Positions 3,693-31,030 of a DNA stretch of 64,000 nucleotides are shown here, one piece after another; positions within the stretch are counted from its first letter, which is position 1, and every line of letters begins with the position of its first letter. Both the position numbers and the translations under genes were made by a program. Source of the stretch: a virus (Duplodnaviria; Heunggongvirae; Uroviricota; Caudoviricetes); the IMG/VR virus record IMGVR_UViG_3300028577_000006, one strand, 5' to 3'. The notes beneath the pieces are model-generated. The model did not search any database. It saw only the letters and a list, made by a program, of their open reading frames with translations, and was not told where the DNA came from.

Positions 3693-4054
3693 ACTTCTCC
3701 GAAGCGCTCCACCTCGTCGTGCACGAGAACGAGAAGGTCACGCGCGCCATCTGGCAAACCGAAGGGTGGGCACGTTCCGCTCAGGCGTCGTGCGACGTTG
3801 GCTCCAAGCTCTGGATCATGACGCTGCTCCCAGGCATGTTCGGCCTGTCGTCCAGTGACGATGACTATTTCTCTGCATTCGGTGGATACGGCCGGCGCCC
3901 GGTCGACAATCAGCCACGGCTTCTTCGCGTCACGTTCGGGCCACTGCGACAGCACAGCGACCCGCCGTCGCGGTTCAATCGCGTGGCGGAATGGATGCCC
4001 GACATGGAGGACATGCTCGCGACGGACTGGATGACCGCGGCAGCCATCCCATGA
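3689..4054 (+). CDS. DUF2829-family protein (paralog 3)
   Basis: ATGA overlap; MNFSEALHLVVHENEKVTRAIW ... DWMTA. Confidence 0.6.
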   Translation: MNFSEALHLVVHENEKVTRAIWQTEGWARSAQASCDVGSKLWIMTLLPGMFGLSSSDDDYFSAFGGYGRRPVDNQPRLLRVTFGPLRQHSDPPSRFNRVAEWMPDMEDMLATDWMTAAAIP

Positions 4055-4335
4055 CCCGCATGTCGATCGAGCCGCACGGGCCGGCCCAGCGTTACGACAC
4101 GATTCGGATCGAGAACGACCGAGAGCGCTCGGCTGCCGAAGCCAGGCAGTTCGCGGTCAGGCTGCACCCGGACGTCGACCGGATCGTCATCACCGGTCGC
4201 AACGGCTACTTCTTGTACGAAGAGTACGTTCTGCGCGGTGATGGCGTCTGGATCGACAAGCATCCGCCGCGCGAAGGAGAAGGCTCCTCCATGCACCGCG
4301 TGATCAGCTACATCGTCCGACGCCTGTTCCCGTGA
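4051..4335 (+). CDS. hypothetical protein
   Basis: ATGA-coupled ORF. Confidence 0.4.
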   Translation: MTRMSIEPHGPAQRYDTIRIENDRERSAAEARQFAVRLHPDVDRIVITGRNGYFLYEEYVLRGDGVWIDKHPPREGEGSSMHRVISYIVRRLFP

Positions 4336-4389
4336 CTGTCTGACGATGCTGCGTTTTGCGGTTGCACAGACGCGTTCTGGCGCGTAGAA

Positions 4390-7094: not shown

Positions 7095-7574
7095 ATGAAG
7101 AAGTGCCAGAGGTGTTCATCGGTCCGCGTCGCAAACATCGGCGGTAAGTGCAGCGACATGTGCGGCTACTCGGTCGGCGACGGAGACGCGCTCGACGGGT
7201 ACGTCCCTGGCGACATGGGCATCGGCGGCGGCGACTACATCGAGTTCGATTTCTGCCTGGACTGCGGCCAGATCCAGGGCCAGAAGAGGAAGACGGCGAT
7301 GACTGATGACAAGCAGCCGATCGGCTACACGCTCGGCGACGACTACTCGAAGGTCAATGACTTCTCCAGGTCACAGCCGGTGTACGAGATCACTCCGGAA
7401 CAGGAGGCGCTGAAGCTCCGGATCCAGGAGAACGCCGAGGCGCTCAAGGCAATCCAGGAAGAGGCGCGCGCGCTTGCGAACGCGTGCAAGCATCCAATCT
7501 GGAACGACACGGGCGGCTTCCTCTACTACGAGCGCCGCTGCTTCATCTGCGACCAGCACATCGACGACATCTGA
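7095..7574 (+). CDS. zinc-ribbon protein
   Basis: SD GAGG upstream; CQRC...CSDMC...CLDCG and C-terminal CFICDQH. Confidence 0.5.
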   Translation: MKKCQRCSSVRVANIGGKCSDMCGYSVGDGDALDGYVPGDMGIGGGDYIEFDFCLDCGQIQGQKRKTAMTDDKQPIGYTLGDDYSKVNDFSRSQPVYEITPEQEALKLRIQENAEALKAIQEEARALANACKHPIWNDTGGFLYYERRCFICDQHIDDI

Positions 7575-8849: not shown

Positions 8850-9644
8850 TCAGCGGCGCTTCACCCCTACGGGTGAACGCTTTGCTGCCGCCTTGCGCGC
8901 GGCGACGATCGGATCTTCGCTCGAAGCGGGTGACGCTCCCGCCACACCACCGAGCATCGAGACATCGCCAGTCGCCATCGCGTTGACCTCGGCCGCGTTG
9001 AAGAGCGAAGCGCCGGCAGCGCCACGCACGACGCTGCCATACTGCGTGTGCGACATCTGGCGGCTGCGCAGCACAGCCTGACTCGTGGCGCCGTAGAGAG
9101 CTTCGGTGCCCATCTTGCTGCCCTGATATCCCGCCGTTGCGCCCTTGCTGACGCCAAGCGAGTCCCCAGCAGCGAAGGCGTCGATGTTCGCGGCAGCGAA
9201 CACGAAGAGCCAGCCGCCCTCCTCTTGGTGCTCCTTCACCATGGCCCGAAGCTGGGCGGACGTGAACTCCTTCGAAGCGTTCTCGGCGCCATCCGTGTGC
9301 ACGACGACGATCACGCGCTCGGGACGTTCTGCCACGGCCATCGCGTCGATCTTCGTGCCGAGCGAAGTGACAGATCGCCCCAGAGCGTCGTTCAACGCCG
9401 TGTTGCCTCGCGGCACGTACGTCAGCGCCGTGAGGTCAGGCACATCCGCAAGCGGCATGTGCATGAAGTCTTCCTGGTACTCGTGGTCGAACTGAACGAG
9501 TGACACGAAGCATGGCGTCGGGAGCACGCGCTGCTCCGCGATCAGCTTGTTGAACCCGTCGATGACCTGCTGTCGCACGCCCGACATCGACATCGATCGA
9601 TCGAGCACGAACATGATCTCCGTGGAACCCGCAACATCCGTCAT
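8850..9644 (-). CDS. von Willebrand factor A (vWA) domain protein
   Basis: FVLDRSMSMSG DxSxS MIDAS motif; internal ATG at 9644 overlaps stop of upstream small ORF (ATGA). Confidence 0.7.
   Translation of the reverse strand: MTDVAGSTEIMFVLDRSMSMSGVRQQVIDGFNKLIAEQRVLPTPCFVSLVQFDHEYQEDFMHMPLADVPDLTALTYVPRGNTALNDALGRSVTSLGTKIDAMAVAERPERVIVVVHTDGAENASKEFTSAQLRAMVKEHQEEGGWLFVFAAANIDAFAAGDSLGVSKGATAGYQGSKMGTEALYGATSQAVLRSRQMSHTQYGSVVRGAAGASLFNAAEVNAMATGDVSMLGGVAGASPASSEDPIVAARKAAAKRSPVGVKRR
8862..8885. terminator. hairpin GTTCACCC-CTAC-GGGTGAAC at convergent gene junction
   Basis: 8-bp GC-rich stem overlapping the 3' end of the vWA gene at the + / - block boundary. Confidence 0.3.
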
Positions 9645-9772
9645 CGCTTCCTCGCCTTCTTCGTCTTCTTCGCCACCTTCGACACGTACTGAACCAGAGC
9701 TTCGACCGGAAGCCTGATCGACTCGCAGCGATCTTCCATTCGCTTGATCGAGTAACCGCCCTTGAAGTTCAC
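9641..9772 (-). CDS. small basic protein (43 aa, tentative)
   Basis: GTG at 9772 overlaps upstream TGA and its own stop overlaps vWA ATG. Confidence 0.3.
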   Translation of the reverse strand: MNFKGGYSIKRMEDRCESIRLPVEALVQYVSKVAKKTKKARKR

Positions 9773-10176
9773 GTTGGGTGCCTTCCGCTGCGGCGCTCGT
9801 CGAGCGCGGACTGGGCGCTCTTGCCGCACGTATCGCAGTAGCTTTCTGTCTCCGACGTGCCCGCCCCGCAGAAGCGGCACTGCTCATCTCGCATCGGAAC
9901 GATCCGCAACTGTGGCGGCTCCCCTCCGTACTCCATCTTGAACTGTTCACGCGCCTCCTGAAGGCTGAAGGCCTCGACGCCCGTGTGCAGACGCTCGCGC
10001 TCGGTTGGGAAAGCGCGCTGCATGCGATTCGCCATATACGAATCCCGCTCGTGCCAGCTGACGTCGTACCAGCGAGTACGCTCGGCGTTGCGATTGGCGG
10101 CGTCTCCGAGACGCGTCAACTGCCGCTCGATCAACAGAAGAACGGTGCTCGCGTTCGGACGCTTCGGACCTGCCAT
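9769..10176 (-). CDS. hypothetical protein with C-terminal zinc ribbon
   Basis: CRFCG...CDTCG pair. Confidence 0.45.
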   Translation of the reverse strand: MAGPKRPNASTVLLLIERQLTRLGDAANRNAERTRWYDVSWHERDSYMANRMQRAFPTERERLHTGVEAFSLQEAREQFKMEYGGEPPQLRIVPMRDEQCRFCGAGTSETESYCDTCGKSAQSALDERRSGRHPT

Positions 10177-10497: not shown

Positions 10498-11241
10498 TCA
10501 CAGGGCGCACAACGCGGCAACAAGATCTTGTTCCGCGGTCCCAGTGACCTCCAGCGTCCACGGCGTCGGCGGCCCGAGCCACGATGCTGGATCAATGCGC
10601 ACGAGCGGCGTGGCGCGCTGCGCTGCACGCGTCGGCAGATCGTTCGCTGGGTACACCGAGCCGGACGTGCCGCAGACGACCACGAGATCTGCTGCCTCCA
10701 CCGCCGCGTAAGCGCGCCGCATGTCGACTGGCTCGCCGAATAGGACCACGTCAGGCCGCGCAGGACGGCCGCACTTCGGACAATCCGGCGCCACGGTGCG
10801 CGGCTCGGCGTCCGGCCACGACGGGTGCTTGCGGCGCTCCTTGGCGCAACGCGTACGAAAGAGCGAGCCATGAAGCTCCACTACGTCTTCGGTGCCGGCC
10901 AAGCGGTCGAGACCGTCGATGTTCTGCGTCACGACCGTCAGTGCCTCGACGCGCCTCGACCAGGCAGCAACCGCACGGTGCGCGGCGTTCGGTCCGTTCG
11001 CGAGCACGGCGCCGCGGATTGGTCCCCATAGCTCCCAGAGGTCGTTCCACCATGCCCGACGCTCGGCCGGATCGCTCATCTTGGCCGGCGGCGGCTTCGA
11101 TCGCTTCTCCCGCTCGGGATGGTCGGTCCAGAGACCACCGGAGCCGCGGTACGTCGGCAGCCCCGACGCCACCGAGAAGCCGGCGCCGGTGACGAGCACG
11201 GGCCTGCGAGCGCGGCGCACGAGCGCTTCGAGATCACTCAT
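10498..11241 (-). CDS. Sir2-family NAD-dependent deacylase/ADP-ribosyltransferase
   Basis: GAGFSVASGLPTYRG, TQNIDGL, two CxxC pairs; internal ATG at 11241; upstream part of ORF overlaps a tRNA. Confidence 0.8.
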   Translation of the reverse strand: MSDLEALVRRARRPVLVTGAGFSVASGLPTYRGSGGLWTDHPEREKRSKPPPAKMSDPAERRAWWNDLWELWGPIRGAVLANGPNAAHRAVAAWSRRVEALTVVTQNIDGLDRLAGTEDVVELHGSLFRTRCAKERRKHPSWPDAEPRTVAPDCPKCGRPARPDVVLFGEPVDMRRAYAAVEAADLVVVCGTSGSVYPANDLPTRAAQRATPLVRIDPASWLGPPTPWTLEVTGTAEQDLVAALCAL

Positions 11242-11311
11242 TCGGGGGCCAGGAATCGAACCTGGATTCGCGGTGCCAAAAACCGATGTCCTGCCATTAG
11301 ACGAACCCCGA
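11241..11311 (-). tRNA. tRNA-Gln (anticodon UUG)
   Basis: cloverleaf with T-arm CCAGG-TTCGATT-CCTGG, anticodon loop TTTTGGC, U1:A72 as in bacterial tRNA-Gln; U7.C66 mismatch shared with the tRNA-Gln(CUG) at 25138. Confidence 0.55.
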
Positions 11312-11314
11312 GCA

Positions 11315-11692
11315 TCACGCCGCGGGGGCTCGTTGCTGCTCGGCCTGAGCCTTCGCGGCGAGCTTCTGCTGGCGGCGCTCAGCGGCACGCGCCTTCACGA
11401 GCGCGCGCTGCTTGGCGTTCTTCTTCGTGTTCGCACGACAGAGCTTGCAGTTGGTCGCGAGCATCGACAGCACCAAACGCGTGCCGTCTTCCGGCCACCC
11501 GCCGTCCGACTCCTGCTCCACCGACACCTTCGACGGCTTCATGCCGGCGGCCTCGGCCATCTGCACGAGATCGACCAAGCTGCCGCCGCAGTCATCGATG
11601 TTGATCGTACACGTGTCCTGAACGCGATTGCGCCAGTCGGCGGAAACGCCGTGGCTCACGTACGGAACGATCTTCTTCTTGGCCACACACAC
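11315..11692 (-). CDS. hypothetical protein
   Basis: ORF between two tRNAs; annotated ATG overlaps tRNA-Glu 3' end by 5 nt, GTG at 11686 is an alternative start. Confidence 0.4.
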   Translation of the reverse strand: MCVAKKKIVPYVSHGVSADWRNRVQDTCTINIDDCGGSLVDLVQMAEAAGMKPSKVSVEQESDGGWPEDGTRLVLSMLATNCKLCRANTKKNAKQRALVKARAAERRQQKLAAKAQAEQQRAPAA

Positions 11693-11758
11693 CGTGGGAG
11701 AATCGAACTCCCGTAGACTGATGGAAAGTCAGTCGTCCTACCACTGGACGAACGGTGC
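11688..11758 (-). tRNA. tRNA-Glu (anticodon UUC)
   Basis: complete cloverleaf: acceptor GCACCGT/ACGGTGT, D GTCC/GGAC, anticodon stem ACTGA/TCAGT loop CTTTCCA, T GGGAG-TTCGATT-CTCCC. Confidence 0.8.
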
Positions 11759-12048
11759 AAAATCTTCGAGCAAGGGTCGCGCACGGGTATGGGCCTCGCG
11801 GCCCGATCTTTTGCAAAAAGGGATAACCGTGTTGCATCGGCTCGAAGATCAGAAACAAAACAGAGCAAGGTTTTGAACGCGGGCGGTTGGGTCGGGTTAT
11901 TAGCCCGATGCATGATTGCGGTAACCCGTGATCGTCGGCTCTGTCGAAAATCCTTTCAGAGATAGTAGCGGACGGTGATAACACAGGCAAGGTGGTGCTG
12001 GACGGGTCAAATGATAGATAACCGTCCAGCTTCGGCCTGTGCGTTAGA
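11759..12048 (-). ncRNA. candidate Y RNA (YrlA-like) locus downstream of rsr
   Basis: 290-nt non-coding, lower-GC, hairpin-rich region immediately 3' of rsr and abutting a tRNA: long-range pairing 11763-11771/11840-11848, hairpins at 11791-11804, 11939-11962, 11997-12030; the only support is position next to rsr. Confidence 0.35.
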
Positions 12049-13803
12049 TCAACCTCGGATGAAGTCGGCGATGACCGCCGGAGCCGCAGCGTCCATGCCC
12101 ACGACGTCGAGCATGCCCGCGTCGGTCGGATCTGCGATGGTGAACGGCGAGGCTGCCGTGGCCACGACCACGAGCTTCGCCGGGATGTTCGTCTTCTGAC
12201 GATAGCGCTGGAGCGCGATGTGCGGGTGCACCTTGCCCGCGTACGTCTCGTTGTCGGTGTAAACGCAGAACGCTTCGAAGGTCTTGTCGCCTTCCAACGC
12301 GTAAAGCATCGGCTGCGAACAGTCGGTCGAGCCCATCGGCAGAGCGCGCATGATCTGCAACGCCTGTTCGAGCTTCGTGGACTTGGTGATGTTGATGGGA
12401 GTCGTGCCCGCGCCCGCGCCCGCGCCACGGCCGCCGCCGGACGTGAAGCCGATCATGTGCGTGCTCTCTTCCACCCGTGCGGTCACCATGGCCATGACGG
12501 CCACTGCCTCACGGTGGGTGATGCACGAGTTCATGATCGGCGAGTCCATCGAGCCGGAGATGTCCAACGCGAGCAGGTGCGACTTGCCCGTCGACTCCAC
12601 CGACTCGAACGCCGTGTAGAAGACGCTGTCGAGCGCATCGACGATCGGCTTCACCGCCGACCAGGTCAACGTACCCTTCTCGCCATGGCCCTGTGCATAC
12701 GTACGCAGCGCCAGAAGCACTGCGAACGGGTGCAGCCGCGACTTCTTGATCGCGTCGTAGTTGGTGAGCTTGTCGATCACGCGCTTCGACGCATCCGACT
12801 TCGGCGTGAGGAGACCGTTCGCCGTCATGCGGCCGAGGTTGCGCACGAGCGCATGCATCGGCATCGAGTCGAGCAGCGCATCCCAGGTCTCCGGCTTGCC
12901 GAGGAACTGCGACGGCACCATCTCGTGCGTCAGGCGATGCTCACGGATGAGCTTGAGCAGCGTCGTGTAGTCGACGTCCGGCTTCCGGATCGTCTCGAAT
13001 GCGCCGATGAGTCCCGGCATGCCGTCTCGCGACAACGCCGGCTGACGCTCGGTGAGCGAAGCTGCGAAGTCCTTCGCGGACAGCGAGTCCACGCCAGCAG
13101 CATGACGACGGTGCGCACGCGCTGCCTGATCCTTGCGCTGGATGGAGCGCTCGTCGAGTGAGCCTGCCACGACCCAGCGGAAGAGCGCCGACATGACCGT
13201 GTCGTCACTCTTCGGGTGAGCCTGACGCATCACGTCGCGGTGCGACCGTCCGTTGCGCTGCTGGTACTTCACCAGCTGGTATGCGAGCGAACCCGGATCA
13301 CGCGACGTGTACCACGCCGCGACCGCGCGCTTCAGCGCCGAGCCCCAGCCGCGAAGCTGCTCGACCTGGTCGATGAACTCGAACAGGTGCGCGCCGGTGC
13401 GGCAGACACGCGGCAACGCCGCGAGCGCAAGGCGACGCACGACCACATCCCCGTGGGACGCAGCGATTGCCAGCGCGAAGATCGCCGGGCTGTTCTTCGG
13501 CGCTCGGCCGGACTCGCTCACCGCAGCGATCTGCTCGATCGCCGCCGCCGCGTCATCCGCCAGACACTCCGTGAGCGCCTTCGCGTTCTCGCGCACGAGC
13601 TTCTTCTCCGTCGAGTGGTACGTGCCACCCTCGGCGCCGAGCACGAGGAATCGATCCAGCTGCTTCCAGCGATCGACCTCGAACGTGAAGCCGCCAGCGT
13701 TGTTCTTCACCTGGCGCGGATCGGCCTTCGCCATCTGCGTCGCGTTGGCGTTGACGCCGGACTTCTTGCCCGACTTGGTAACGTGCTGTGCGTAGTTGGA
13801 CAT
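12049..13803 (-). CDS. rsr: Ro60-like ribonucleoprotein Rsr (TROVE domain + C-terminal vWA)
   Basis: 584 aa; TROVE-like N-terminal two thirds and C-terminal LALDISGSMDSP MIDAS motif; classic 60-kDa SS-A/Ro architecture. Confidence 0.85.
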   Translation of the reverse strand: MSNYAQHVTKSGKKSGVNANATQMAKADPRQVKNNAGGFTFEVDRWKQLDRFLVLGAEGGTYHSTEKKLVRENAKALTECLADDAAAAIEQIAAVSESGRAPKNSPAIFALAIAASHGDVVVRRLALAALPRVCRTGAHLFEFIDQVEQLRGWGSALKRAVAAWYTSRDPGSLAYQLVKYQQRNGRSHRDVMRQAHPKSDDTVMSALFRWVVAGSLDERSIQRKDQAARAHRRHAAGVDSLSAKDFAASLTERQPALSRDGMPGLIGAFETIRKPDVDYTTLLKLIREHRLTHEMVPSQFLGKPETWDALLDSMPMHALVRNLGRMTANGLLTPKSDASKRVIDKLTNYDAIKKSRLHPFAVLLALRTYAQGHGEKGTLTWSAVKPIVDALDSVFYTAFESVESTGKSHLLALDISGSMDSPIMNSCITHREAVAVMAMVTARVEESTHMIGFTSGGGRGAGAGAGTTPINITKSTKLEQALQIMRALPMGSTDCSQPMLYALEGDKTFEAFCVYTDNETYAGKVHPHIALQRYRQKTNIPAKLVVVATAASPFTIADPTDAGMLDVVGMDAAAPAVIADFIRG

Positions 13804-13844
13804 GACGGAACCTCCCAGAACGAATACCCAGAAAACCAGAACAA

Positions 13845-13917
13845 CGTCTCGTGCGAGAATCGAACTCGCGTCATCTGTTCGAGAAACAGAGGGCCTGGGC
13901 CACTAGCCGAACGAGAC
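13845..13917 (-). tRNA. tRNA-Glu (anticodon CUC)
   Basis: acceptor GTCTCGT/ACGAGAC, anticodon stem TCTGT/ACAGA loop TTCTCGA, T GCGAG-TTCGATT-CTCGC. Confidence 0.85.
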
Positions 13918-13945
13918 ACAGACAGAATAGAAAACCGAAGAAGCG

Positions 13946-14599
13946 CTACTGCTTACGCCGACCGATTCGTTTTCGCGCAATACCATAAGCATCAAGCCAT
14001 TTTCTGATCGTTACGTCAGACACGCCATATTCGCGAGCCAGCGCCAGCGCAGGCTTGTCAGCAACGGCTTCCAACTGCGCTCGCGATGGCTTTGCCACGC
14101 GCTCGGCGCTGTGGGAGCGCTGCCGCGCGCGACCCAAGCGCTCGCTGCTGCAAGCAACACACCGCCGCTTCGCGCCTCCAGCCTTCGTAACTTCGATCCA
14201 CACGTTCGCCGGATCTTCCAAACTGTGTCCGGACTTGCACTCCGTTTTTCGAGAGTTGAGACCAACGAAGCCCTCTCCGCGCCGCAGATTTATTCCGTCG
14301 GTTACCGGCTCTAGGTGAGAGGGCTTCACGCACAGGTGCACGCGACACAGGTGGTCAAGCACTTGCCACTCTTCCAGCGGCAGGCCCGAAGCGATGTACG
14401 CGATCCGGTGCGCGTACCGCGTTTCGTGTGGAGCCAGAATAAACACACCGTACGGCTCCGGGTTCAACCGGTTTTCCTTGCTGCGTGAACTGCCACGCCA
14501 CAGCCAGCAGCCGTTGTCAGCTAACTTCTCGACGAGAGACCAAAAGGCCGCCTTCTGGCCTTCGTCCATGTCACGAATCAGCTGGTCTTTTGCTACCAT
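13946..14599 (-). CDS. HNH homing endonuclease with C-terminal HTH
   Basis: NGCWLWRG ... HRIAY ... HLC motifs of HNH_3; C-terminal DNA-binding helix; sits between tRNA genes. Confidence 0.75.
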   Translation of the reverse strand: MVAKDQLIRDMDEGQKAAFWSLVEKLADNGCWLWRGSSRSKENRLNPEPYGVFILAPHETRYAHRIAYIASGLPLEEWQVLDHLCRVHLCVKPSHLEPVTDGINLRRGEGFVGLNSRKTECKSGHSLEDPANVWIEVTKAGGAKRRCVACSSERLGRARQRSHSAERVAKPSRAQLEAVADKPALALAREYGVSDVTIRKWLDAYGIARKRIGRRKQ

Positions 14600-19000: not shown

Positions 19001-19516
19001 TCACGCCGCCGCCGCAAGATACGGACGCCACGTCTCGGGCACCGTGTTCAGGTCGAACTTCTTGCTGACGATCGGAAGCCAGTCGGGCTTCCTCGGAACA
19101 CGGAGAAGCGTCATGCCAGCTTCGGCCGGCGTGCGGTTCGCCTTCTTCGCGTTGCACACGTAGCAGGCCATCACGATGTTCTCCCACTCGGTCTTGCCAC
19201 CACGCGAACGCGGAAGCACGTGGTCGTAGTTCAGGCCGCGCGGCTCGAACGAGACGCGACAGTACTGGCACGTGTGACCGTCACGCAGCAGGACGTTCTG
19301 CCGCGAGAACTTGATCGAGACCTTGCGGACCCGACCCTTGCGCAGCTTCCGGATCACCGACGGCATCTGCATGATGACGCTCGGCGAGCGAAGCACTTCC
19401 GCAAGCTCCTCGACGACCTCGGCCTTGCTGTCGTAGAGCATGCACACGGCACGCTCCCAGCTGATGATCCGCTCCGGTCTGTAGAACATGTCCAGCACCA
19501 GTACTCTGTTTTCCAT
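19001..19516 (-). CDS. HNH endonuclease (McrA-like)
   Basis: CQYC ... NYDHVLPRSRGG ... WENIVMACYVCNAKK. Confidence 0.75.
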   Translation of the reverse strand: MENRVLVLDMFYRPERIISWERAVCMLYDSKAEVVEELAEVLRSPSVIMQMPSVIRKLRKGRVRKVSIKFSRQNVLLRDGHTCQYCRVSFEPRGLNYDHVLPRSRGGKTEWENIVMACYVCNAKKANRTPAEAGMTLLRVPRKPDWLPIVSKKFDLNTVPETWRPYLAAAA

Positions 19517-22526: not shown

Positions 22527-22653
22527 AAGGTTTCTAGCAAGGTTCGTAAGATGGCATGATGACGGCTGCTCTGCCACCTGAGCTACATCCGCACGGGCGG
22601 AAGGTTGGACTCGAACCAACGACATGCTGTTTGGGTAACCATCTGACTTCGGC
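22527..22653 (-). pseudogene. degenerate tRNA-like pair: 58-nt acceptor+T-arm element (22596..22653) and tRNA 5'-half-like segment (22527..22595)
   Basis: 22596..22653 has T-arm GTTGG-TTCGAGT-CCAAC and acceptor-like ends but no D/anticodon arms; 22527..22595 begins GCGGATGTAGCTCAGGTGGCAGAGC (canonical acceptor-5' + D-arm) then loses tRNA structure. Confidence 0.35.
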
Positions 22654-22659
22654 TAGAAG

Positions 22660-22728
22660 AGGGGCGACACAGAGTTGCACTGTGCTTCATCGGGTTGCAG
22701 CCGATGTCCTTCGCTGGAAGCTCGCCCC
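22660..22728 (-). tRNA. tRNA-Cys (anticodon GCA); T-loop TGCAACT
   Basis: acceptor GGGGCGA/TCGCCCC, anticodon stem ATCGG/CCGAT loop CTGCAAC. Confidence 0.7.
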
Positions 22729-22866
22729 AAGTTCTCTGGCAAGGGTCGTCGTTGGATATTACGGCGTTCTACTCTTGAACTACGCCCTCCATAGAAAGGG
22801 AAGGCGGCTGGAGTCGCACCAGCGTTACCGGCTCCATATGCGGTAACCAACAACATCGGCCAGAGA
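22729..22866 (-). other. structured 138-nt spacer with T-arm-like hairpin (GCTGG-TGCGACT-CCAGC) and 7-bp hairpin GTTACCG/CGGTAAC; no tRNA fold found
   Basis: hairpins seen in sequence; acceptor pairing absent. Confidence 0.3.
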
Positions 22867-22937
22867 AGCGATCGGCGAGAATCGAACTCGCGTCTCCTGG
22901 GTGGAAGCCAGGGGCCAAGCCACTTGACCACAATCGC
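22867..22937 (-). tRNA. tRNA-Gly (anticodon UCC)
   Basis: anticodon stem CCTGG/CCAGG loop CTTCCAC, T GCGAG-TTCGATT-CTCGC. Confidence 0.8.
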
Positions 22938-24519: not shown

Positions 24520-24611
24520 TTACAAGTAGGCAAGGGTTGAAGGTCGGAAATGGGCCTTTCGGCCCAGTCTTTGGTATTGGTAAAGAGATAACCAACCTTC
24601 TTCGGCCTACA

Positions 24612-24685
24612 CGCCTCTGGCGGGAGTTGAACCCGCCTCGACCCTGCTTGACAAGCAGGCGTCCACGCCGGTGGACTTCAGAGGC
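24612..24685 (-). tRNA. tRNA-Asp (anticodon GUC); T-loop TTCAACT
   Basis: acceptor GCCTCTG/CAGAGGC, D GTCC/GGAC, anticodon stem CCTGC/GCAGG loop TTGTCAA. Confidence 0.8.
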
Positions 24686-26556: not shown

Positions 26557-26583
26557 CAGCCCCGACTTGCCGCGATCGGCTCG

Positions 26584-26808
26584 CTACACCTGACCACGGA
26601 ACACCACGCTGTACTTGGGCACGATGCGCTCGTCACCGATCTCCGCCGCGCTCGCGTGAGGCAGCCGAGTCGCCTCCAGAAACCGCACGCGGTAGTACTT
26701 GTTCGTCTCCCCAGTCACCTCGACTGAAACCGAACTTCGCCCCGACCATCCATCGAGACACATGCGAGCCGCCTTCGGCTCCATCTGCTTCACTTCCGAC
26801 TTCTTCAC
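26584..26808 (-). CDS. hypothetical protein
   Basis: ORF upstream of S24 peptidase. Confidence 0.4.
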   Translation of the reverse strand: MKKSEVKQMEPKAARMCLDGWSGRSSVSVEVTGETNKYYRVRFLEATRLPHASAAEIGDERIVPKYSVVFRGQV

Positions 26809-27135
26809 CTACGCCTCCACCTTCACCAAGCGTCCGTAGACCTGGGACCGATTCACCCAGCCGTTGAGCCTGCCATGATTGTTTCCAATCAGGAAGCCTC
26901 GGTTGAGGTCCACGGACTTCACGAGGTGGAGATAGTAGGACGAGCGGACGAAACAGAGAACGACGTCGTCGACCTCTGGATCGGCCACGAGAGGTTCGAC
27001 CGTACACAGCTGCCCAGACTTGATCCGGGGCGTCATCGAGTTGCCTCTGGGCCGGAACGAAACCGTCTCGCCGGCCACGAGCTTCTCGGCGTACGGCTTG
27101 GCCCAGCCATCCCTCACGCTCAGCCCTTCACGCAC
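26809..27135 (-). CDS. S24-family (LexA/UmuD-like) peptidase domain protein
   Basis: GNSMTPRIKSGQL matches the GDSMxP serine-nucleophile motif of S24 peptidases; no HTH domain. Confidence 0.6.
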   Translation of the reverse strand: MREGLSVRDGWAKPYAEKLVAGETVSFRPRGNSMTPRIKSGQLCTVEPLVADPEVDDVVLCFVRSSYYLHLVKSVDLNRGFLIGNNHGRLNGWVNRSQVYGRLVKVEA

Positions 27136-28283
27136 ATGATCTGCTTGAGCTTCTCGTGGATCGTCACGAGGTCAGCCTGGTTGGCCATGACCTGGTCGAT
27201 GTCCTTGTACGACATGGGGATCTCGTCGAGCACGCTGCTGTCCTTGCGGCACTCGACGCCCGCTGTCGCTGACGCAAGATCGTCGAGCGTGAACGTTCGC
27301 TTCGCTTCGCCGCGCGACATGCGGCGGCCGGCGCCGTGTGATGCCGAATGGAACGACTCCGGGTTGCCGAGGCCCTTCACGATGTACGAGCACGTTCCCA
27401 TCGAGCCCGGGATGATGCCCCACTCGCCTGCGCGCGCCGAGATCGCGCCCTTGCGTGTGACGATAACGTCCTCGCCGAAGTGGCACTCGTGGCTGACGTA
27501 GTTGTGGTGACAGGAGATCGGCTCGAAGAATGCCACTCCGGGTACCATCGAACGCAAAACATCCTGGTAGATGACAAGCATCACCTGACGATTCTCCTTC
27601 GCGTATCGCTGCGCCCATTCCAAATCGTGAACGTAGGCCGCCATCTCTGGCGTCTTCGAAAGAAACACGGCGAGATCACGGTCCGGAAGAAGGGCGTTGT
27701 GTGCGAGCTTCTTCGCTCGCTTGATGTGGATCTCGGCCAGGCACTTTCCGATGTTGCGTGAGCCCGAATGCAGCATCATCCACACGTGATCGTGTGAATC
27801 CAGGCACAGCTCGATGAAGTGGTTCCCGCCGCCGAGCGAGCCCATCTGCTTCATCGCCGTGCCGTACTTGTCCGCCACGCTCTCGTCAAGATCCTTGAAG
27901 CTCGCCCAGAGTGCCGACTTACGCGCGCTCTTGTGCATCGAGTCGTGTCCGTTCGGACCAAGCGGAATCACCTCTTCGATCTTCGACCGAAGATCTTTCA
28001 GCGAATCCGGAAGATGGTGCGACGTCATGTTGGTCTCGACCGCCAGCATGCCGCAGCCGATGTCAACTCCCACGGCAGCGGGCGAGAGCGCGTCCTTCAT
28101 CGCGATCACCGAGCCGACGGTCGCGCCCTTCCCGAGGTGCACGTCTGGCATGACCGCGACGTGCTTGAACGCCCACGGAAGCGCAGCGATGCCCTTCAGC
28201 TGATCGATCGCAGCCGACTCTACCTCGTGTCGGTTCGCCCACATCTTGATGGGAACCACCTTGCCCTGAAGCTCGTCGATCAT
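27120..28283 (-). CDS. rtcB: RNA-splicing ligase RtcB (3'-phosphate/5'-hydroxyl RNA ligase)
   Basis: 387 aa; metal-binding His/Cys-rich motifs (GGNHFIE, HSGSRN, AHNA) typical of RtcB. Confidence 0.9.
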   Translation of the reverse strand: MIDELQGKVVPIKMWANRHEVESAAIDQLKGIAALPWAFKHVAVMPDVHLGKGATVGSVIAMKDALSPAAVGVDIGCGMLAVETNMTSHHLPDSLKDLRSKIEEVIPLGPNGHDSMHKSARKSALWASFKDLDESVADKYGTAMKQMGSLGGGNHFIELCLDSHDHVWMMLHSGSRNIGKCLAEIHIKRAKKLAHNALLPDRDLAVFLSKTPEMAAYVHDLEWAQRYAKENRQVMLVIYQDVLRSMVPGVAFFEPISCHHNYVSHECHFGEDVIVTRKGAISARAGEWGIIPGSMGTCSYIVKGLGNPESFHSASHGAGRRMSRGEAKRTFTLDDLASATAGVECRKDSSVLDEIPMSYKDIDQVMANQADLVTIHEKLKQIMCVKG

Positions 28284-28306
28284 GACTCTCTCCCGCCTTC
28301 GTCGCC

Positions 28307-28549: not shown

Positions 28550-28560
28550 GCTGCCACCTT

Positions 28561-30543
28561 TCACGTCGACCTCCAAAAGATCTCCTGCGCCTCCACGCAA
28601 AGCTCGTTGAGCTTCGCCACGTCTGGCGCGTGCCGCAACGTTGACTCCTTGTACAGCGTCTGCATCTCTGCGTCCTGCTGTTCGGCCCACTCGACCAGCC
28701 TCTCGTACGGCCACTCGCCTGCGCGGATCGCGAGAAGCTCCTTCGCGTCCGGACGCCGCACGATGACACCTTGGCCCTCCAAGATCTCGCGACACATGCG
28801 CAAGAGTCTGACGAGGTGCATACCGTGTTTGGTGTTGCCGTGGATCGCGATCTTGCCTTCGCGCCGTGTCACCAGGATCTCGTTAGGCACCGTGAAGCAA
28901 ACGATTCTTGCGCCAGTCATCCGCAACAAGTCTAGTGACTGGCTGTCCGGAGCCAGACGCACGTGCGCCGCTATACGTCGGTCACCAACGTAGACCTGAT
29001 ACATGGGCCCTTTACCACCCTCGTAAACGTACGGCCCCCATACCTGCGACACGATGCCCGACGACACGCACATCACCTGGACATCATCAGCCAGTTGCTT
29101 CGACGAGGTGTAGTACACGCGGCTGTGTTCGCGTTCCGTGCCATCCCCGGCGACCATCACTTCCAGCAGCAAATCGACCTGTCGCCTGGAAAGCTCGCGC
29201 GTCCAGTCAGGCAACCGCAACGATGCAGATCCAACGCCACAGCACCGCTCGACCCAACCAGCCCGAGTGCGGTCAGCAATCGTCCACACGTGCTCATCGC
29301 ACGCAGCCGAACGGTGCTCGTCGGCTTGGTGCGTGTACGCGTACCTCCGGATGGCATCCGGAAACTTCACCATCAACCCGTCCATGTACGGCTGCTGACG
29401 GCCTCCGACCTTCTGCGAGATCCGCAGCACAGATGCGCTTCCGTCCGCCAGACGCTTACCCACGCACCCTTCGGTGACGTAACAGCCCAATAGAACAAGA
29501 TCGTCGTCTGACACCGGATACTCGACTTCGGTCGCATCAGCAGTCAGCCGCGTATGAAACCCGGACCGCCGATCGGCCAAGAGATCACGCAACGGCCGCA
29601 GCGTCCAATCGGCACGGTCCGCGGCGAACTCCCAAGAAAACCCGTTGGTTTTGCTGCGGTGTGCCGGCGACACCAACATTCGATGGTTCATGGTCACGGC
29701 ACAGTTGGAGTGCTGCGGATGCAAAACGGCGATCTCCCCGTCGAACGGCTTGGCCACGCGCTCGGTGAAGCCCTGGTACTCGATGCGACCCGTACGCGGA
29801 TTCAACGTTCCCACGCGCGCGTCGTCGGGGATGTCGTCATACCGCTTCCAGCCGCTTTCGGTCAGGAACTCGGTGTCGTCCAAGTAGCAGTCGTAGCCAT
29901 GCTGCGCTTCGAGCGCCGCGCGCTTCTGGTTCCGATCCGTCTTCCATCGCTCGTGCGAGTTCCACGCATCGAGCGCGGCCTTGTACTTCTTCTCCTTCGC
30001 CACGAGGTCCATGACGTTGGCGTCGCCGGCCATGCCTTCGGCGGCCATCTTGTCGAAGGCGCCCATCATGTCGGGCGTGATCTTCATCTCGGTGGAGAGG
30101 CCGTACTCCTTGCGCGTCGGCTTGTGGTCTGGCGGGTTGAGCAGGTAGCCACGATGCGTGCGGATCCGCTTCAGTTGGCTGACCGCATACCCGCTGAACG
30201 TGTGCCGCGCCTTCTTCGACAAGAAGAGGTCGCGGTTCTCACGGATCAGTCGTCCTGCCGGATGCTGGAAGAGCACGTCCGAGTCATCGACGAAGAGCAC
30301 CTCGATGATGTTCGGGTTGCAGTCGGCAGCCAGGTTGCAGAACTTCCGGATGTCGTAAACGACCTTGTCTTCCGGCTCCATCTGCTGGTGCTGCTCGAAG
30401 CTGTACGCGAAGCCCAGCACGAAGTTCTTCGGCGAGACCGCGAAACCCTTCGTGTCGATGTCCGACGTCGGCAAGCTGGTGCCGTACGCGTGGCTGCCGT
30501 GCCGCGCGAGGAAGACGGTGTGCTTGGCGATGTCGAAGTGCAT
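28561..30543 (-). CDS. Pol-beta-superfamily nucleotidyltransferase (RNA-repair-associated type) interrupted by an intein
   Basis: N-extein RHGSHAYGTSLPTSDIDTKG (GS..DxD NTase motif); intein CYLDDTEFLTESGW ... two LAGLIDADG blocks (LLGCYVTEG, LLLEVMVAGDG) ... VCFTVPNEILV...IAIHGN followed by Thr. Confidence 0.7.
   Translation of the reverse strand: MHFDIAKHTVFLARHGSHAYGTSLPTSDIDTKGFAVSPKNFVLGFAYSFEQHQQMEPEDKVVYDIRKFCNLAADCNPNIIEVLFVDDSDVLFQHPAGRLIRENRDLFLSKKARHTFSGYAVSQLKRIRTHRGYLLNPPDHKPTRKEYGLSTEMKITPDMMGAFDKMAAEGMAGDANVMDLVAKEKKYKAALDAWNSHERWKTDRNQKRAALEAQHGYDCYLDDTEFLTESGWKRYDDIPDDARVGTLNPRTGRIEYQGFTERVAKPFDGEIAVLHPQHSNCAVTMNHRMLVSPAHRSKTNGFSWEFAADRADWTLRPLRDLLADRRSGFHTRLTADATEVEYPVSDDDLVLLGCYVTEGCVGKRLADGSASVLRISQKVGGRQQPYMDGLMVKFPDAIRRYAYTHQADEHRSAACDEHVWTIADRTRAGWVERCCGVGSASLRLPDWTRELSRRQVDLLLEVMVAGDGTEREHSRVYYTSSKQLADDVQVMCVSSGIVSQVWGPYVYEGGKGPMYQVYVGDRRIAAHVRLAPDSQSLDLLRMTGARIVCFTVPNEILVTRREGKIAIHGNTKHGMHLVRLLRMCREILEGQGVIVRRPDAKELLAIRAGEWPYERLVEWAEQQDAEMQTLYKESTLRHAPDVAKLNELCVEAQEIFWRST
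28834..29889 (-). mobile_element. intein (~352 aa) with LAGLIDADG homing-endonuclease domain
   Basis: Cys1 block A, block F-like VCFTVPNEILV, C-terminal HGN then +1 Thr; two LAGLIDADG motifs. Confidence 0.65.
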
Positions 30544-30547
30544 GGCT

Positions 30548-31030
30548 CTAGCTCCAGTCGACTTGTAGGCCCCAGCAGGTCTTGACATCGTAGACCTTGC
30601 GAAGAGCAGAGAGTTCTTCGGGGAACTGCCCCTCGAACAACGCCATCTCCGCCTCACGGTCCACGCCGGCCAGATCTACGTGATGGCTCGCGCCTCTATC
30701 TCCGTTCAGCCTCAAGCCGACCGAGCCTCGGATGTTCGGTACGAAGTAGACGACGTCCTCGTCCTCGTCATCACGGATCGACGACAGGCGCTCGCTCTCG
30801 CCGAGCGCTTCGTGCGGCGACGGTCGACCCTTCACCAGCTTCGTCGTCTTGCCTGTCGCAGTGCCACACGTGGCGCAGAACGACGAGAGCGCAGCCTGCA
30901 TCCAGGTCTCGCGCTTCTTCCACTGCGCACACTTCGAGTTCGTGCACCCGTACACATCTACCTCGCGCTCGCTTGGCTCTGCGGTCGCCTCGGCATACGG
31001 CCCGACGTACATGCTCATGTAGAGACCCAT
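30548..31030 (-). CDS. hypothetical zinc-ribbon protein
   Basis: CTNSKC ... CATCG Cys pairs; start uncertain (GTG 31057 or ATG 31030). Confidence 0.4.
   Translation of the reverse strand: MGLYMSMYVGPYAEATAEPSEREVDVYGCTNSKCAQWKKRETWMQAALSSFCATCGTATGKTTKLVKGRPSPHEALGESERLSSIRDDEDEDVVYFVPNIRGSVGLRLNGDRGASHHVDLAGVDREAEMALFEGQFPEELSALRKVYDVKTCWGLQVDWS

What the first reader, a model, noticed from the sequence alone, without database searches (positions are those of the whole stretch)
11241..13917. Rsr (Ro60) gene flanked by tRNAs with a 290-nt structured non-coding region where Y RNAs are expected
Bacterial and phage rsr genes are characteristically next to one or two Y RNA genes (YrlA-like, tRNA-mimicking). 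The only sizeable non-coding stretch at the locus is 11759-12048, immediately 3' of rsr. It is lower in GC than the surroundings and contains a long-range 9-bp pairing (11763-71 / 11840-48), an 11-bp stem hairpin (11997-12030), shorter hairpins, and a GC hairpin with a U tract (11791-11814). It directly abuts tRNA-Glu(UUC), and tRNA-Gln and tRNA-Glu(CUC) flank the locus.
Basis: partly seen in the sequence, partly recalled or inferred. Interest (0 to 1): 0.65.

Follow-up and report, generated by a model that had tools for sequence, protein, structure and literature searches.

The report
Phage Ro60 gene with Y RNAs
The gap after this phage's Ro60 (rsr) gene holds three back-to-back genes for Y RNAs, the small RNAs that Ro60 proteins bind, and three more lie among the phage's tRNA genes; this is a rich but expected example of a known protein-RNA partnership.

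Summary
All genes lie on the minus strand. The 289-nt gap between rsr (12049-13803) and tRNA-Glu(UUC) holds three tandem Y-RNA-like genes: Y1 11979-12044, Y2 11857-11947 and Y3 11762-11849. Each has the Ro60-binding module: a 7-10 bp terminal helix, a bulged C, G·U and A-U pairs, an asymmetric loop, a 9-bp upper stem and UUAYC.

Three more copies sit in the tRNA array: Y4 22529-22661 and Y5 22731-22868 (YrlA-type, with a permuted tRNA-like domain) and Y6 24522-24614.

Seven related phage loci (51-65% Rsr identity) carry two to four such elements just after rsr, with strong compensatory change. A model built from one class finds such elements beside rsr in 49 of 80 viral and 46 of 80 bacterial loci, always on rsr's strand. 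No element reaches an Rfam gathering score.

RtcB, RlaP, Sir2 and 37 tRNAs surround the locus, which points to a phage RNA-repair and surveillance island. Phage Y RNAs next to rsr are already known (Chen 2014; Thermus phage phiLo 2025), so this is a new member of a known kind. Expression and Rsr binding remain untested.

The parts
12049..13803 (-). rsr (Ro60 orthologue), 584 aa
   Evidence: Pfam TROVE 4e-44 and vWA_Ro60 4e-59. PHROG 850 RNA-binding protein. PDB sequence matches: human RO60 1.3e-115, Xenopus Ro60 1.1e-113, D. radiodurans Rsr 1.7e-98, Thermus phage phiRo60 1.2e-10.
11979..12044 (-). Y1: short hairpin Y RNA (class A). The terminal helix starts 7 nt after the rsr stop codon. It pairs 12042-12035 with 11988-11981. 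C12034 is bulged. G12033·U11989 and A12032-U11990 follow. The upper stem pairs 12030-12022 with 12005-11997. UUAUC is at 12021-12017.
   Evidence: Rfam RF01656 (nematode stem-bulge RNA, a Y RNA homologue) scores 37.0 bits against a gathering score of 38. Class A alignment A1 is 98% paired, with 10 of 19 pairs compensatory. Model R1 scores 74 bits, but Y1 is a seed member. Model R2, built without any window sequence, scores 35.9 bits, E = 1e-7.
11857..11947 (-). Y2: Y RNA of class B. The terminal helix pairs 11945-11938 with 11866-11859. C11937 is bulged. The motif after the upper stem is UUACC. The apical part has two small hairpins.
   Evidence: R1 scores 31.6 bits, E = 1.4e-5; Y2 is not in the seed. 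Orthologues occur in L003, L005, L006 and L007, with 8 of 23 predicted pairs compensatory.
11762..11849 (-). Y3: Y RNA of class C. The terminal helix pairs 11849-11840 with 11771-11762. C11839 is bulged. UUAUC is present. The apical GC hairpin GGGCCGCGAGGCCC is capped by a GCGA tetraloop. Y3 ends 2 nt before tRNA-Glu(UUC).
   Evidence: R1 scores 37.1 bits, E = 6e-7; Y3 is not in the seed. R2 scores 36.8 bits. In alignment A4, 11 of 20 pairs are compensatory.
11687..11759 (-). tRNA-Glu(UUC), directly 3' of Y3
   Evidence: ARAGORN and Rfam tRNA at 58.5 bits. A tRNA follows the last Y RNA in relatives L003, L005, L009 and L010 as well.
13844..13918 (-). tRNA-Glu(CUC), 40 nt 5' of the rsr start codon
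   Evidence: ARAGORN and Rfam tRNA at 54.5 bits.
   Evidence: ARAGORN and Rfam tRNA at 48.2 bits.
22529..22661 (-). Y4: YrlA-type Y RNA. It has the same Ro60-binding stem plus a T-arm, an 8-bp acceptor-like stem and a D-arm. It fills the gap between tRNA-Cys and tRNA-Arg(UCU).
   Evidence: Rfam YrlA scores 36.8 bits against a gathering score of 69. R2, built from relatives only, scores 71.7 bits, E = 3e-17. In alignment A5, 23 of 33 pairs are compensatory.
22731..22868 (-). Y5: second YrlA-type Y RNA. It fills the gap between tRNA-Gly(UCC) and tRNA-Cys.
   Evidence: Rfam YrlA scores 30.4 bits. R2 scores 103.3 bits, E = 9e-26. It is included in alignment A5.
24522..24614 (-). Y6: Y RNA resembling class C, with an apical GGGCC-GAAA-GGCCC hairpin. 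It fills the gap between tRNA-Asp and tRNA-Pro(UGG).
   Evidence: R1 scores 37.2 bits, E = 6e-7; Y6 is not in the seed. R2 scores 33.4 bits. It is included in alignment A4.
27120..28283 (-). RtcB RNA ligase (context: RNA-repair island)
   Evidence: Pfam RtcB, 397.6 bits, 1.1e-118.
28561..30657 (-). RlaP nucleotidyltransferase with a LAGLIDADG-like insert (context)
   Evidence: Pfam RlaP 7.3e-18 and LAGLIDADG_3 9.9e-5.
10501..11241 (-). Sir2-family protein (context). Its start codon overlaps the 3' end of tRNA-Gln by 1 nt.
   Evidence: Pfam SIR2 4.3e-37. PHROG 2162.

Best explanation
The 289-nt gap after rsr is a tandem array of three Y RNA genes, Y1, Y2 and Y3. Three further Y RNA genes, Y4, Y5 and Y6, are embedded in the phage's tRNA array.

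Shown from sequence and comparison. Every copy pairs its 5' and 3' ends into the Ro60-binding module. The parts, in order, are:
- a 7-10 bp terminal helix ending in a C-G pair;
- a bulged C;
- a G·U pair and an A-U pair;
- an internal loop of 1 nt on the 5' side and 5-7 nt on the 3' side;
- an upper stem of 8-9 bp ending in GG/CC;
- the motif UUAYC.
The apical domain differs by class. Class A (Y1) has a small loop. Class B (Y2) has two small hairpins. Class C (Y3, Y6) has a GC hairpin capped by a tetraloop, mostly GNRA. Class D (Y4, Y5) has a permuted tRNA-like domain, as in YrlA.

Inferred. The RNAs are made as part of long minus-strand transcripts that also carry rsr and tRNAs. They are released by tRNA-processing enzymes: RNase P at the 5' end of the following tRNA, and RNase Z or exonucleases after the preceding tRNA. 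This would explain why Y3, Y4, Y5 and Y6 abut tRNAs within 1-6 nt. Each RNA then binds the outer surface of the phage Rsr ring through the bulged helix. Its apical module acts as a gate and as a tether to a partner.

The locus lies in an island with RtcB ligase, RlaP nucleotidyltransferase, Sir2 and 37 tRNAs. The most likely role is therefore a phage-encoded Rsr/Y-RNA particle that supports surveillance, repair or decay of damaged or misfolded tRNA and other structured RNA during infection. It would work with RtcB/RlaP and/or with a host 3'-5' exoribonuclease such as PNPase.
For: Identity as Y RNAs.
- The Ro60-binding motif occurs six times at intergenic minus-strand sites; 10 strict matches against 1.9 expected.
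- Y1 aligns end to end with the stem-bulge RNA model RF01656 at 37 bits, against a gathering score of 38.
- Y4 and Y5 match the YrlA model with the T-arm, stem, D-arm order.
- Orthologous elements in relative L010 match the vertebrate Y_RNA model RF00019 at 23.5-30.8 bits.

Conservation.
- Loci with 51-65% Rsr identity (L003, L005, L006, L007, L009, L010, L011) all have two to four such elements starting within about 20 nt of the rsr stop codon.
- Class A: 98% of cells paired, 10 of 19 pairs compensatory, about 35% paired when partners are slid.
- Family alignment of 87 elements: 95.4% paired against about 40% slid. The pair next to the bulge switches cleanly between C-G (64) and U-A (22). The bulged C is present in 85 of 87 and the following G in 87 of 87.

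Specificity.
- R1 with filters off finds only Y1, Y6, Y3 and Y2 in 64 kb; the next hit has E = 0.1.
- R2, built without any window sequence, finds Y5 (E = 9e-26) and Y4 (E = 3e-17).

Linkage to rsr.
- R1 hits lie in 49 of 80 IMG/VR rsr loci (80 of 80 hits on rsr's strand) and in 46 of 80 bacterial rsr loci (62 of 62 hits on rsr's strand).

Biology from the literature.
- Y RNAs lie on the same strand as rsr, within 4 kb, in 254 bacteria and 22 phages. M. smegmatis YrlA and YrlB are cut from one precursor (PMC4201824).
- Thermus phage phiLo Ro60 binds two phage-encoded Y-like RNAs and, with them, host PNPase (PMC12135203).
- TROVE proteins with a tRNA-like partner are listed among jumbo-phage RNA-repair systems, together with RtcB, RlaP and tRNAs (PMC7824862).

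Context in the window: RtcB, RlaP, Sir2 and 37 tRNAs.
Against: - There are no expression, end-mapping or binding data; the host is unknown.
- No element reaches an Rfam gathering score: YrlA 36.8 and 30.4 against 69; RF01656 37.0 against 38; RF00019 gives no hit in the window.
- No promoter was found with the sigma-70-type scan, the only promoter type the tool covers. Separate transcription units are therefore not shown.
- Y1 starts 7 nt after the rsr stop codon, so it could remain part of the mRNA.
- Alignments A2 and A7 were fitted to the model and so lean towards its structure. The hits near rsr were searched only within 2.5-3 kb flanks, so proximity is partly built in. The strand bias is not.
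- The functional link to RtcB and RlaP rests on neighbourhood (13-17 kb away) and on analogy.
Confidence: 0.88

Rival explanations
1. The elements next to rsr are cis-acting Rsr-binding or stabilising structures in the rsr mRNA 3' UTR. They would serve autoregulation or protection from 3' exonucleases and would not be released as free Y RNAs.
For: - Y1 begins 7 nt after the stop codon here and within about 20 nt in every relative.
- No promoter-like site and no convincing minus-strand terminator lies between rsr and tRNA-Glu.
Against: - The same module occurs 8.7-10.7 kb away between tRNAs (Y4-Y6), and mostly upstream of rsr in bacteria. The 3' UTR position is therefore not a requirement.
- M. 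smegmatis Y RNAs are co-transcribed and then processed (PMC4201824).
- Y3 abuts a tRNA whose 5' processing must cut the transcript there.
- A dual role for Y1 is not excluded.
Confidence: 0.08
2. The structures are generic transcript-processing or termination hairpins, or decayed tRNA genes, of the kind that fill spacers in phage tRNA clusters, with no relation to Rsr.
For: - On the plus strand, 11790-11805 followed by a T tract scores as a terminator-like site.
- Y4 and Y5 contain tRNA-like T and D arms.
- The region sits in a tRNA cluster.
Against: - All genes are on the minus strand, where that hairpin has no U tract.
- The invariant positions are exactly those of the Ro60 binding site: bulged C, GA/UU, UUAYC.
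- The module is found beside rsr in bacterial genomes, always on rsr's strand.
- The T-arm precedes the D-arm, as in YrlA and unlike a decayed tRNA.
- ARAGORN calls no tRNA at these sites.
Confidence: 0.03
3. This rival concerns function only. The Rsr/Y RNPs do not take part in tRNA or RNA repair. Instead they capture host PNPase in a RYPER-like complex, to redirect or damp host RNA decay or CRISPR RNA maturation, as proposed for Thermus phage phiLo.
For: - PMC12135203 shows ternary complexes of phiRo60, Yrl RNA and host PNPase, with attenuated PNPase activity.
- D. radiodurans and Salmonella Y RNAs tether Rsr to PNPase (PMC4201824, PMC4726728).
- No PNPase was seen among the window ORFs tested.
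Against: - The window's Rsr is only distantly related to phiRo60 (1.2e-10) and much closer to Ro60 and Rsr of animals and D. radiodurans.
- The surrounding genes (RtcB, RlaP, 37 tRNAs) are those of RNA repair, and Salmonella rsr-yrlBA is co-operonic with rtcBA (PMC7790460).
- The two roles are not mutually exclusive.
Confidence: 0.35

Closest known systems
YrlA (Rfam RF02553; Chen et al. 2014, PMC4201824)
   Same: Y4 and Y5 share the following with YrlA:
- a terminal helix carrying the GNCGAAN0-1G motif (GCCGAAG in Y4, GCCGAUG in Y5);
- then a T-arm, an acceptor-like stem and a D-arm, in the permuted YrlA order;
- the same strand as rsr.
Cultured actinophages carry close counterparts beside their rsr genes: Gordonia phage Cashline and Microbacterium phage SM23.
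   Different: - Scores of 36.8 and 30.4 bits are far below the gathering score of 69.
- Both strands of the Ro60-binding helix and a UUAYC motif are conserved, whereas Chen 2014 found only the 5' strand recognisable in Salmonella and M. smegmatis.
- The genes lie 8.7-9.1 kb from rsr, inside a tRNA array, rather than within 4 kb.
- Y1-Y3 and Y6 have no tRNA-like domain and so are not YrlA.
Second-type bacterial Y RNAs: S. Typhimurium YrlB, M. smegmatis YrlB, D. radiodurans Yrn2
   Same: [quoted passage not shown] Y1 fits this description: it is a 62-nt hairpin with a 16-nt loop in which 11 of 16 bases are pyrimidines.
   Different: - No sequence comparison with those RNAs could be made here, because no Rfam family exists for them.
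- Classes B and C have larger, class-specific apical domains.
Metazoan Y RNA (RF00019) and nematode stem-bulge RNA (RF01656)
   Same: The order and spacing of elements are the same: a helix ending in C-G; a bulged C; a GA/UU pair step; one unpaired purine opposite a 4-6 nt bulge; a 9-bp upper stem ending in GG(G); then UUAU(C) at the 5' edge of the loop (model consensus lines; PMC4726728; PMC4450293). Relative L010 even uses GGUCCGA...CUUGAUC. The window's Rsr is closer in sequence to human and Xenopus Ro60 than to D. radiodurans Rsr.
   Different: - The elements are bacterial or phage genes without Pol III signals or a 3' oligo-U/La site.
- Scores stay just under the gathering thresholds.
- The internal loops are unrelated.
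- Homology as opposed to convergence on the same Ro60 surface is not established.
Thermus phage phiLo Ro60 with Yrl1 and Yrl2 (PMC12135203)
   Same: A phage-encoded Ro60 with several phage-encoded Y-like RNAs next to the gene. Those RNAs were recognised by a CGAA motif in a stem-bulge-stem, and binding was shown experimentally.
   Different: - phiLo has two RNAs upstream of the gene; this window has three downstream plus three elsewhere.
- The proteins are only remotely related (1.2e-10).
- No tRNA array or RtcB context is reported for phiLo.
Salmonella rsr-yrlBA-rtcBA RNA-repair operon (PMC7790460) and jumbo-phage RNA-repair islands (PMC7824862)
   Same: Rsr, Y RNAs and the RtcB ligase occur together in one genomic neighbourhood. 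In jumbo phages they are accompanied by RlaP, SIR2 and many tRNAs.
   Different: - Here the genes are spread over about 19 kb and interleaved with tRNAs and HNH endonuclease genes, rather than forming a compact operon.
- No RtcA or RtcR was seen among the ORFs tested.

Membership tests
Y RNA (Ro60/Rsr-binding non-coding RNA, broad sense) | The 5' and 3' ends pair into a helix that carries the Ro60 binding site: a helix of about 7 bp, a single bulged C, and a bulge on the opposite strand. | tested here: met
   All six elements have a 7-10 bp helix, a bulged C, G·U and A-U pairs, and a 1 x 5-7 nt asymmetric loop. The pairs are supported by covariation. The bulged C is present in 85 of 87 family members.
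Y RNA (Ro60/Rsr-binding non-coding RNA, broad sense) | In bacteria and phages, the gene lies near the Ro60 orthologue and on the same strand. | tested here: met
   Y1-Y3 lie 7-290 nt after rsr on the same strand. Y4-Y6 are on the same strand but 8.7-10.7 kb away. In 160 other rsr loci, all 142 model hits are on rsr's strand.
Y RNA (Ro60/Rsr-binding non-coding RNA, broad sense) | The RNA is physically bound by Ro60/Rsr and depends on it for stable accumulation. | not testable with these tools
   This needs RIP or EMSA and a deletion of rsr.
Rfam Y_RNA (RF00019) / ceN72-3_ceN74-2 stem-bulge RNA (RF01656) | The score reaches the curated gathering threshold of 38 bits. | tested here: not met
   Y1 scores 37.0 bits on RF01656. 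RF00019 gives no hit in the window. Among relatives, L011 scores 38.8 bits on RF01656 and L010 up to 30.8 bits on RF00019.
YrlA (RF02553) | The GNCGAAN0-1G motif is present on the 5' strand of the terminal helix. | tested here: met
   GCCGAAG in Y1, Y4 and Y6. The variants GCCGACG (Y2) and GCCGAUG (Y3, Y5) differ at the sixth position.
YrlA (RF02553) | A tRNA-like domain is present: T-arm, acceptor-like stem and D-arm, in that order. | tested here: met
Met for Y4 and Y5 only. Not met for Y1, Y2, Y3 and Y6, which have no T or D arm.
YrlA (RF02553) | The score reaches the gathering threshold of 69 bits. | tested here: not met
   36.8 bits (Y4) and 30.4 bits (Y5).
YrlA (RF02553) | The RNA carries tRNA-type modifications and is a substrate of RNase P or the CCA-adding enzyme. 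| not testable with these tools
   Experimental properties reported for Salmonella and M. smegmatis YrlA (PMC4201824).
Ro60/Rsr protein | A TROVE (HEAT-repeat ring) domain followed by a vWA domain. | tested here: met
   Pfam TROVE at residues 32-366 and vWA_Ro60 at residues 410-582. The protein aligns with human RO60 in two stretches covering most of both proteins (residues 21-220 and 266-581).

The most novel reading that the evidence does not exclude
The Y RNAs of this phage clade, and of many bacteria, would be true homologues of animal Y RNAs and nematode stem-bulge RNAs, not merely analogues.

They keep both strands of the Ro60-binding helix, the same 9-bp upper stem and the UUAYC motif at the same position. 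They also travel with an Rsr that is closer to vertebrate Ro60 than to D. radiodurans Rsr.

This would mean that Ro60 and its Y RNA moved between domains of life as one unit, possibly carried by phages. It would also mean that UUAUC, so far discussed only for DNA-replication activity in animals, is an ancient feature of the Ro60 particle.

In addition, six Y RNAs with four apical designs may assemble distinct Rsr particles in one phage.
Probability: 0.3. Interest if true: 0.6.

Novelty: new member of a known kind. Interest (0 to 1): 0.42.

Why it matters
The work turns an unannotated 289-nt gap into three defined RNA genes and adds three more elsewhere in the window. None would be annotated by Rfam at curated thresholds.

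It shows that an uncultured jumbo-phage clade carries a full Rsr/Y-RNA set (six RNAs of four designs) inside an island that also holds RtcB, RlaP, Sir2 and 37 tRNAs. This gives a concrete system for asking what Ro60 particles do during infection.

Y4-Y6 fit exactly between tRNAs, and Y3 abuts the tRNA that follows it. This suggests a simple, testable route for making their ends.

The family-wide result has wider use for annotation and for the question of how bacterial and animal Y RNAs are related. The bulged-C helix followed by UUAYC occurs beside rsr in 49 of 80 viral and 46 of 80 bacterial loci, always on rsr's strand. The covariance models R1 and R2 could seed Rfam families for non-YrlA bacterial and phage Y RNAs.

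Tried and rejected
- A search of viral contigs with the single Rsr protein found nothing. Relatives were reached through the protein database and through an alignment-based scan instead.
- A loose motif scan (6-bp stem with G·U allowed, any stem sequence) gave chance-level counts: 51 against 26 in shuffles. It was replaced by a stricter one.
- A motif-like stem inside the rsr coding sequence (13423-13505) and three others inside ORFs (7127-7182, 43699-43816, 46926-47024) are not seen by the covariance model. They are taken as the roughly two chance matches expected.
- R1 does not detect Y4 and Y5 even with filters off, because their apical insert is about 100 nt. They were confirmed with a separate class D model built without window sequences.
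- A weak R1 hit at 31279-31323(+) (E = 0.1) lacks the bulged C, the upper stem and UUAYC, and was rejected.
- The ORFs overlapping the gap (11656-11913 minus strand; 11789-11965 and 11628-11876 plus strand) were rejected as genes. They overlap tRNA-Glu or the conserved helices, and the orthologous alignments contain indels that are not multiples of three.
- Two reviews on bacterial Y RNAs (PMC10870794, PMC6047535) are not held in the library. I therefore could not check whether UUAYC in bacterial Y RNAs has already been noted.
- Pfam and PHROG searches of most small neighbouring ORFs gave nothing.

Full report
1. THE OBSERVATION

Everything in the region is encoded on the minus strand. The rsr ORF is 12049-13803 (584 aa) and carries Pfam TROVE and vWA_Ro60 domains. 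ARAGORN places tRNA-Gln(UUG) at 11241-11311, tRNA-Glu(UUC) at 11687-11759 and tRNA-Glu(CUC) at 13844-13918. It finds 37 tRNA genes between 11.2 and 25.7 kb.

The only sizeable gap at the locus is 11760-12048 (289 nt). Its GC content is 53.3%, against 63.6% for the window. As minus-strand RNA it folds better than shuffles (z = -3.9).

2. WHAT THE GAP CONTAINS

Read on the coding strand, the gap holds three units about 97 nt apart. Each begins with ...GC-C-GA and ends with CC-UU-GC..., flanked by complementary arms. They are Y1 (11979-12044), Y2 (11857-11947) and Y3 (11762-11849).

All three share one module: a 7-10 bp terminal helix, a bulged C, a G·U and an A-U pair, one unpaired base opposite 5-7 bases, a 9-bp upper stem ending in GG/CC, and then UUAUC or UUACC.

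- The 9-bp long-range pairing is the terminal helix of Y3.
- The 11997-12030 hairpin is the upper stem of Y1.
- The 'GC hairpin with U tract' is the apical hairpin of Y3. It resembles a terminator only on the non-coding strand.

The same strict motif picks out three more intergenic minus-strand sites in the tRNA array: Y4 (22529-22661), Y5 (22731-22868) and Y6 (24522-24614). In total there are 10 matches in the window against 1.9 in shuffles. The four matches inside ORFs fit chance.

3. LIBRARY MODELS

Rfam gives only sub-threshold matches, but they are consistent with one another.
- Y1 aligns end to end with RF01656, a nematode stem-bulge RNA and Y RNA homologue, at 37.0 bits against a gathering score of 38.
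- Y4 and Y5 match YrlA (RF02553) at 36.8 and 30.4 bits against a gathering score of 69. Both show a T-arm, an acceptor-like stem and a D-arm in the permuted YrlA order.
- In relative L010, three tandem elements match the vertebrate Y_RNA model RF00019 at 23.5-30.8 bits. They use GGUCCGA...CUUGAUC.

4. RELATIVES AND COVARIATION

No cultured phage is close at the DNA level. The protein database gave Rsr homologues at 51-65% identity on uncultured phage contigs of up to 298 kb. In every one, two to four elements with the same module start within about 20 nt of the rsr stop codon. In L003, L005, L009 and L010 a tRNA follows the last element directly, as in the window.

The elements fall into conserved classes.
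- Class A: short hairpin (Y1).
- Class B: Y2.
- Class C: apical hairpin capped by a tetraloop, mostly GNRA (Y3, Y6).
- Class D: YrlA-type (Y4, Y5).

Covariation by class:
- Class A: 98% of cells paired, 10 of 19 pairs with changes on both sides, about 35% paired when partners are slid.
- Class B: 8 of 23 RNAalifold pairs compensatory.
- Class C: 11 of 20.
- Class D: 23 of 33.

5. COVARIANCE MODELS

R1 was built from class A only.
- It finds Y3, Y6 and Y2, which are not in its seed, at E = 6e-7 to 1.4e-5.
- With filters off, it finds nothing else in 64 kb better than E = 0.1.

R2 was built from class D elements of relatives only.
- It finds Y5 (103 bits, E = 9e-26) and Y4 (72 bits, E = 3e-17).
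- It also finds YrlA-type RNAs beside rsr in Gordonia phage Cashline and Microbacterium phage SM23.

R1 was then run over other rsr loci.
- In 80 IMG/VR rsr loci it gives 80 hits in 49 loci.
- In 80 bacterial rsr loci from many phyla it gives 62 hits in 46 loci.
- All 142 hits are on rsr's strand.

In the 87-element alignment, 95.4% of cells pair, against about 40% in slid controls. The pair next to the bulge alternates cleanly between C-G (64) and U-A (22). The bulged C (85 of 87), the following G (87 of 87) and UUAYC (82-87 of 87) are nearly invariant.

The model was trained on UUAYC, so I repeated the test with a scan that ignores it. UUAYC occurs 9-11 nt after the GA in 88 sense-strand candidates (43 of 170 bacterial, 44 of 132 viral) and in none on the antisense strand. 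The one antisense candidate that carries the motif has it at a different offset.

6. WHAT IT IS AND HOW IT LIKELY WORKS

These are Y RNA genes. What is shown is the sequence and structure signature of the Ro60-binding site, its conservation and covariation, and its strict linkage in position and strand to rsr.

The following steps are inferred.
- The RNAs are probably cut from long transcripts that also carry rsr and tRNAs. No sigma-70-type promoter-like site and no minus-strand terminator was found in 11.0-14.8 kb.
- Y4, Y5 and Y6 fill their tRNA-tRNA gaps to within 1-6 nt, and Y3 ends 2 nt before tRNA-Glu. RNase P and RNase Z cleavage of the neighbouring tRNAs would therefore produce their ends. 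M. smegmatis YrlA and YrlB are likewise processed from one precursor (PMC4201824).
- By analogy with Xenopus, D. radiodurans, Salmonella and Thermus phage phiLo, the bulged helix binds the outer face of the Rsr ring, and the apical domain gates the ring and tethers a partner such as PNPase (PMC4726728, PMC4201824, PMC12135203).

The neighbourhood refines the guess. It holds RtcB (27120-28283), RlaP (28561-30657), a Sir2 protein (10501-11241) and 37 tRNAs. These are the components listed for jumbo-phage RNA-repair systems, which include TROVE proteins 'with a tRNA-like partner' (PMC7824862). In Salmonella, rsr-yrlBA is co-operonic with rtcBA (PMC7790460).

I therefore favour a phage Rsr/Y-RNA particle that serves surveillance, repair or decay of damaged tRNA and other structured RNA during infection. 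Capture of host PNPase is an overlapping alternative.

7. COMPARISON WITH WHAT IS KNOWN, AND NOVELTY

Y RNAs beside rsr are established for 254 bacteria and 22 phages (PMC4201824). Binding of phage-encoded Y-like RNAs by a phage Ro60 has been shown (PMC12135203). The finding is thus a new member of a known kind.

It is notable in four respects.
- There are six Y RNA genes of four designs in one phage.
- The three RNAs next to rsr lack the tRNA-like domain, while the YrlA-type copies sit in the tRNA array, well beyond the usual 4 kb.
- Both strands of the binding helix and UUAYC are kept, as in animal Y RNAs and nematode stem-bulge RNAs (PMC4450293). Chen 2014 found only the 5' strand recognisable in Salmonella and M. 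smegmatis.
- The Rsr is closer in sequence to human and Xenopus Ro60 (about 1e-115) than to D. radiodurans Rsr (1.7e-98) or phiLo Ro60 (1.2e-10).

Whether this reflects common descent or convergence on one protein surface is open.

8. LIMITS

- There are no expression or binding data, and the host is unknown.
- The E-values of my models are rough because calibration was short.
- Alignment A7 is fitted to the model.
- Proximity to rsr in the 160 comparison loci is partly built in by the 2.5-3 kb flanks, although the strand bias is not.
- I could not read two reviews that might already mention UUAYC in bacterial Y RNAs.

Noticed in passing
window 26086-30657 (-), with 10501-11241 (-): The tRNA cluster is flanked by RNA-repair and NAD-related genes. 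These are RtcB ligase (27120-28283), an RlaP nucleotidyltransferase that carries a LAGLIDADG-like insert (28561-30657, 698 aa), a weak YAcAr/SLOG match (26086-26556) and a Sir2 protein (10501-11241). The whole 10-31 kb stretch looks like a jumbo-phage island for protecting the translation apparatus.
   Followed up: partly
window 22528-22658, 22729-22866, 24520-24610: Y4, Y5 and Y6 each fill a tRNA-to-tRNA spacer almost exactly, with 1-6 nt to spare, and Y3 ends 2 nt before tRNA-Glu(UUC). tRNA-processing enzymes alone could therefore define the ends of these Y RNAs.
   Followed up: partly
L002 (Microbacterium phage SM23, PQ655446) 4033-4329: The record's annotated tRNA-Asn (locus 4260-4326) lies inside an 83-bit YrlA-type match (4196-4329). 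Its 'hypothetical protein' CDS (4037-4186) overlaps a Y-RNA stem (4033-4101). Both annotations are probably wrong. Gordonia phage Cashline (L001) has two unannotated YrlA-type RNAs at 4074-4202 and 4217-4350, just upstream of its rsr.
   Followed up: partly
window 11318-11692 (-): A 125-aa ORF lies between tRNA-Glu(UUC) and tRNA-Gln. It is conserved at 32-66% identity at the same position, after the Y array, in L003, L005, L006 and L007. It has invariant Cys...CxxC residues and a basic C-terminal tail. It has no Pfam or PHROG family and may be a partner of the Rsr/Y module.
   Followed up: partly
160 rsr loci, L012-L171: The motif UUAYC sits 9-11 nt after the bulged-C GA step in Y-like stems beside rsr, across phages and many bacterial phyla. 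It occurs in 88 sense-strand candidates at that offset and in none on the antisense strand. This is the position of the UUAUC motif of nematode stem-bulge RNAs and vertebrate Y RNAs.
   Followed up: yes
L003 1253-1849, L005 1395-2054, L006 8871-9555; L003 5945-7447, L005 7160-8490, L007 7835-9040 and 14195-15712: Related phages carry genes resembling peptide-chain release factors (PCRF/RF-1) just upstream of rsr, and TnpB/OrfB_IS605-like genes nearby. I did not check whether the window has the same genes.
   Followed up: no
window 13946-14599 and 19001-19516 (-): HNH endonuclease genes are interspersed among the tRNA genes, here and in the relatives. They are probably homing endonucleases.
   Followed up: no
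window 13423-13505 (-), inside rsr: A stem with GCGC-C-GA...UU-GCGC resembles the Ro60-binding motif on the rsr mRNA itself. It lacks the upper stem and UUAYC and is not detected by the covariance model, so it is probably chance.
   Followed up: yes
window 8850-9950 (-): A 366-aa vWA-domain protein lies downstream of the locus. Weak vWA proteins also occur a few kb downstream of rsr in L006 and L007.
   Followed up: no
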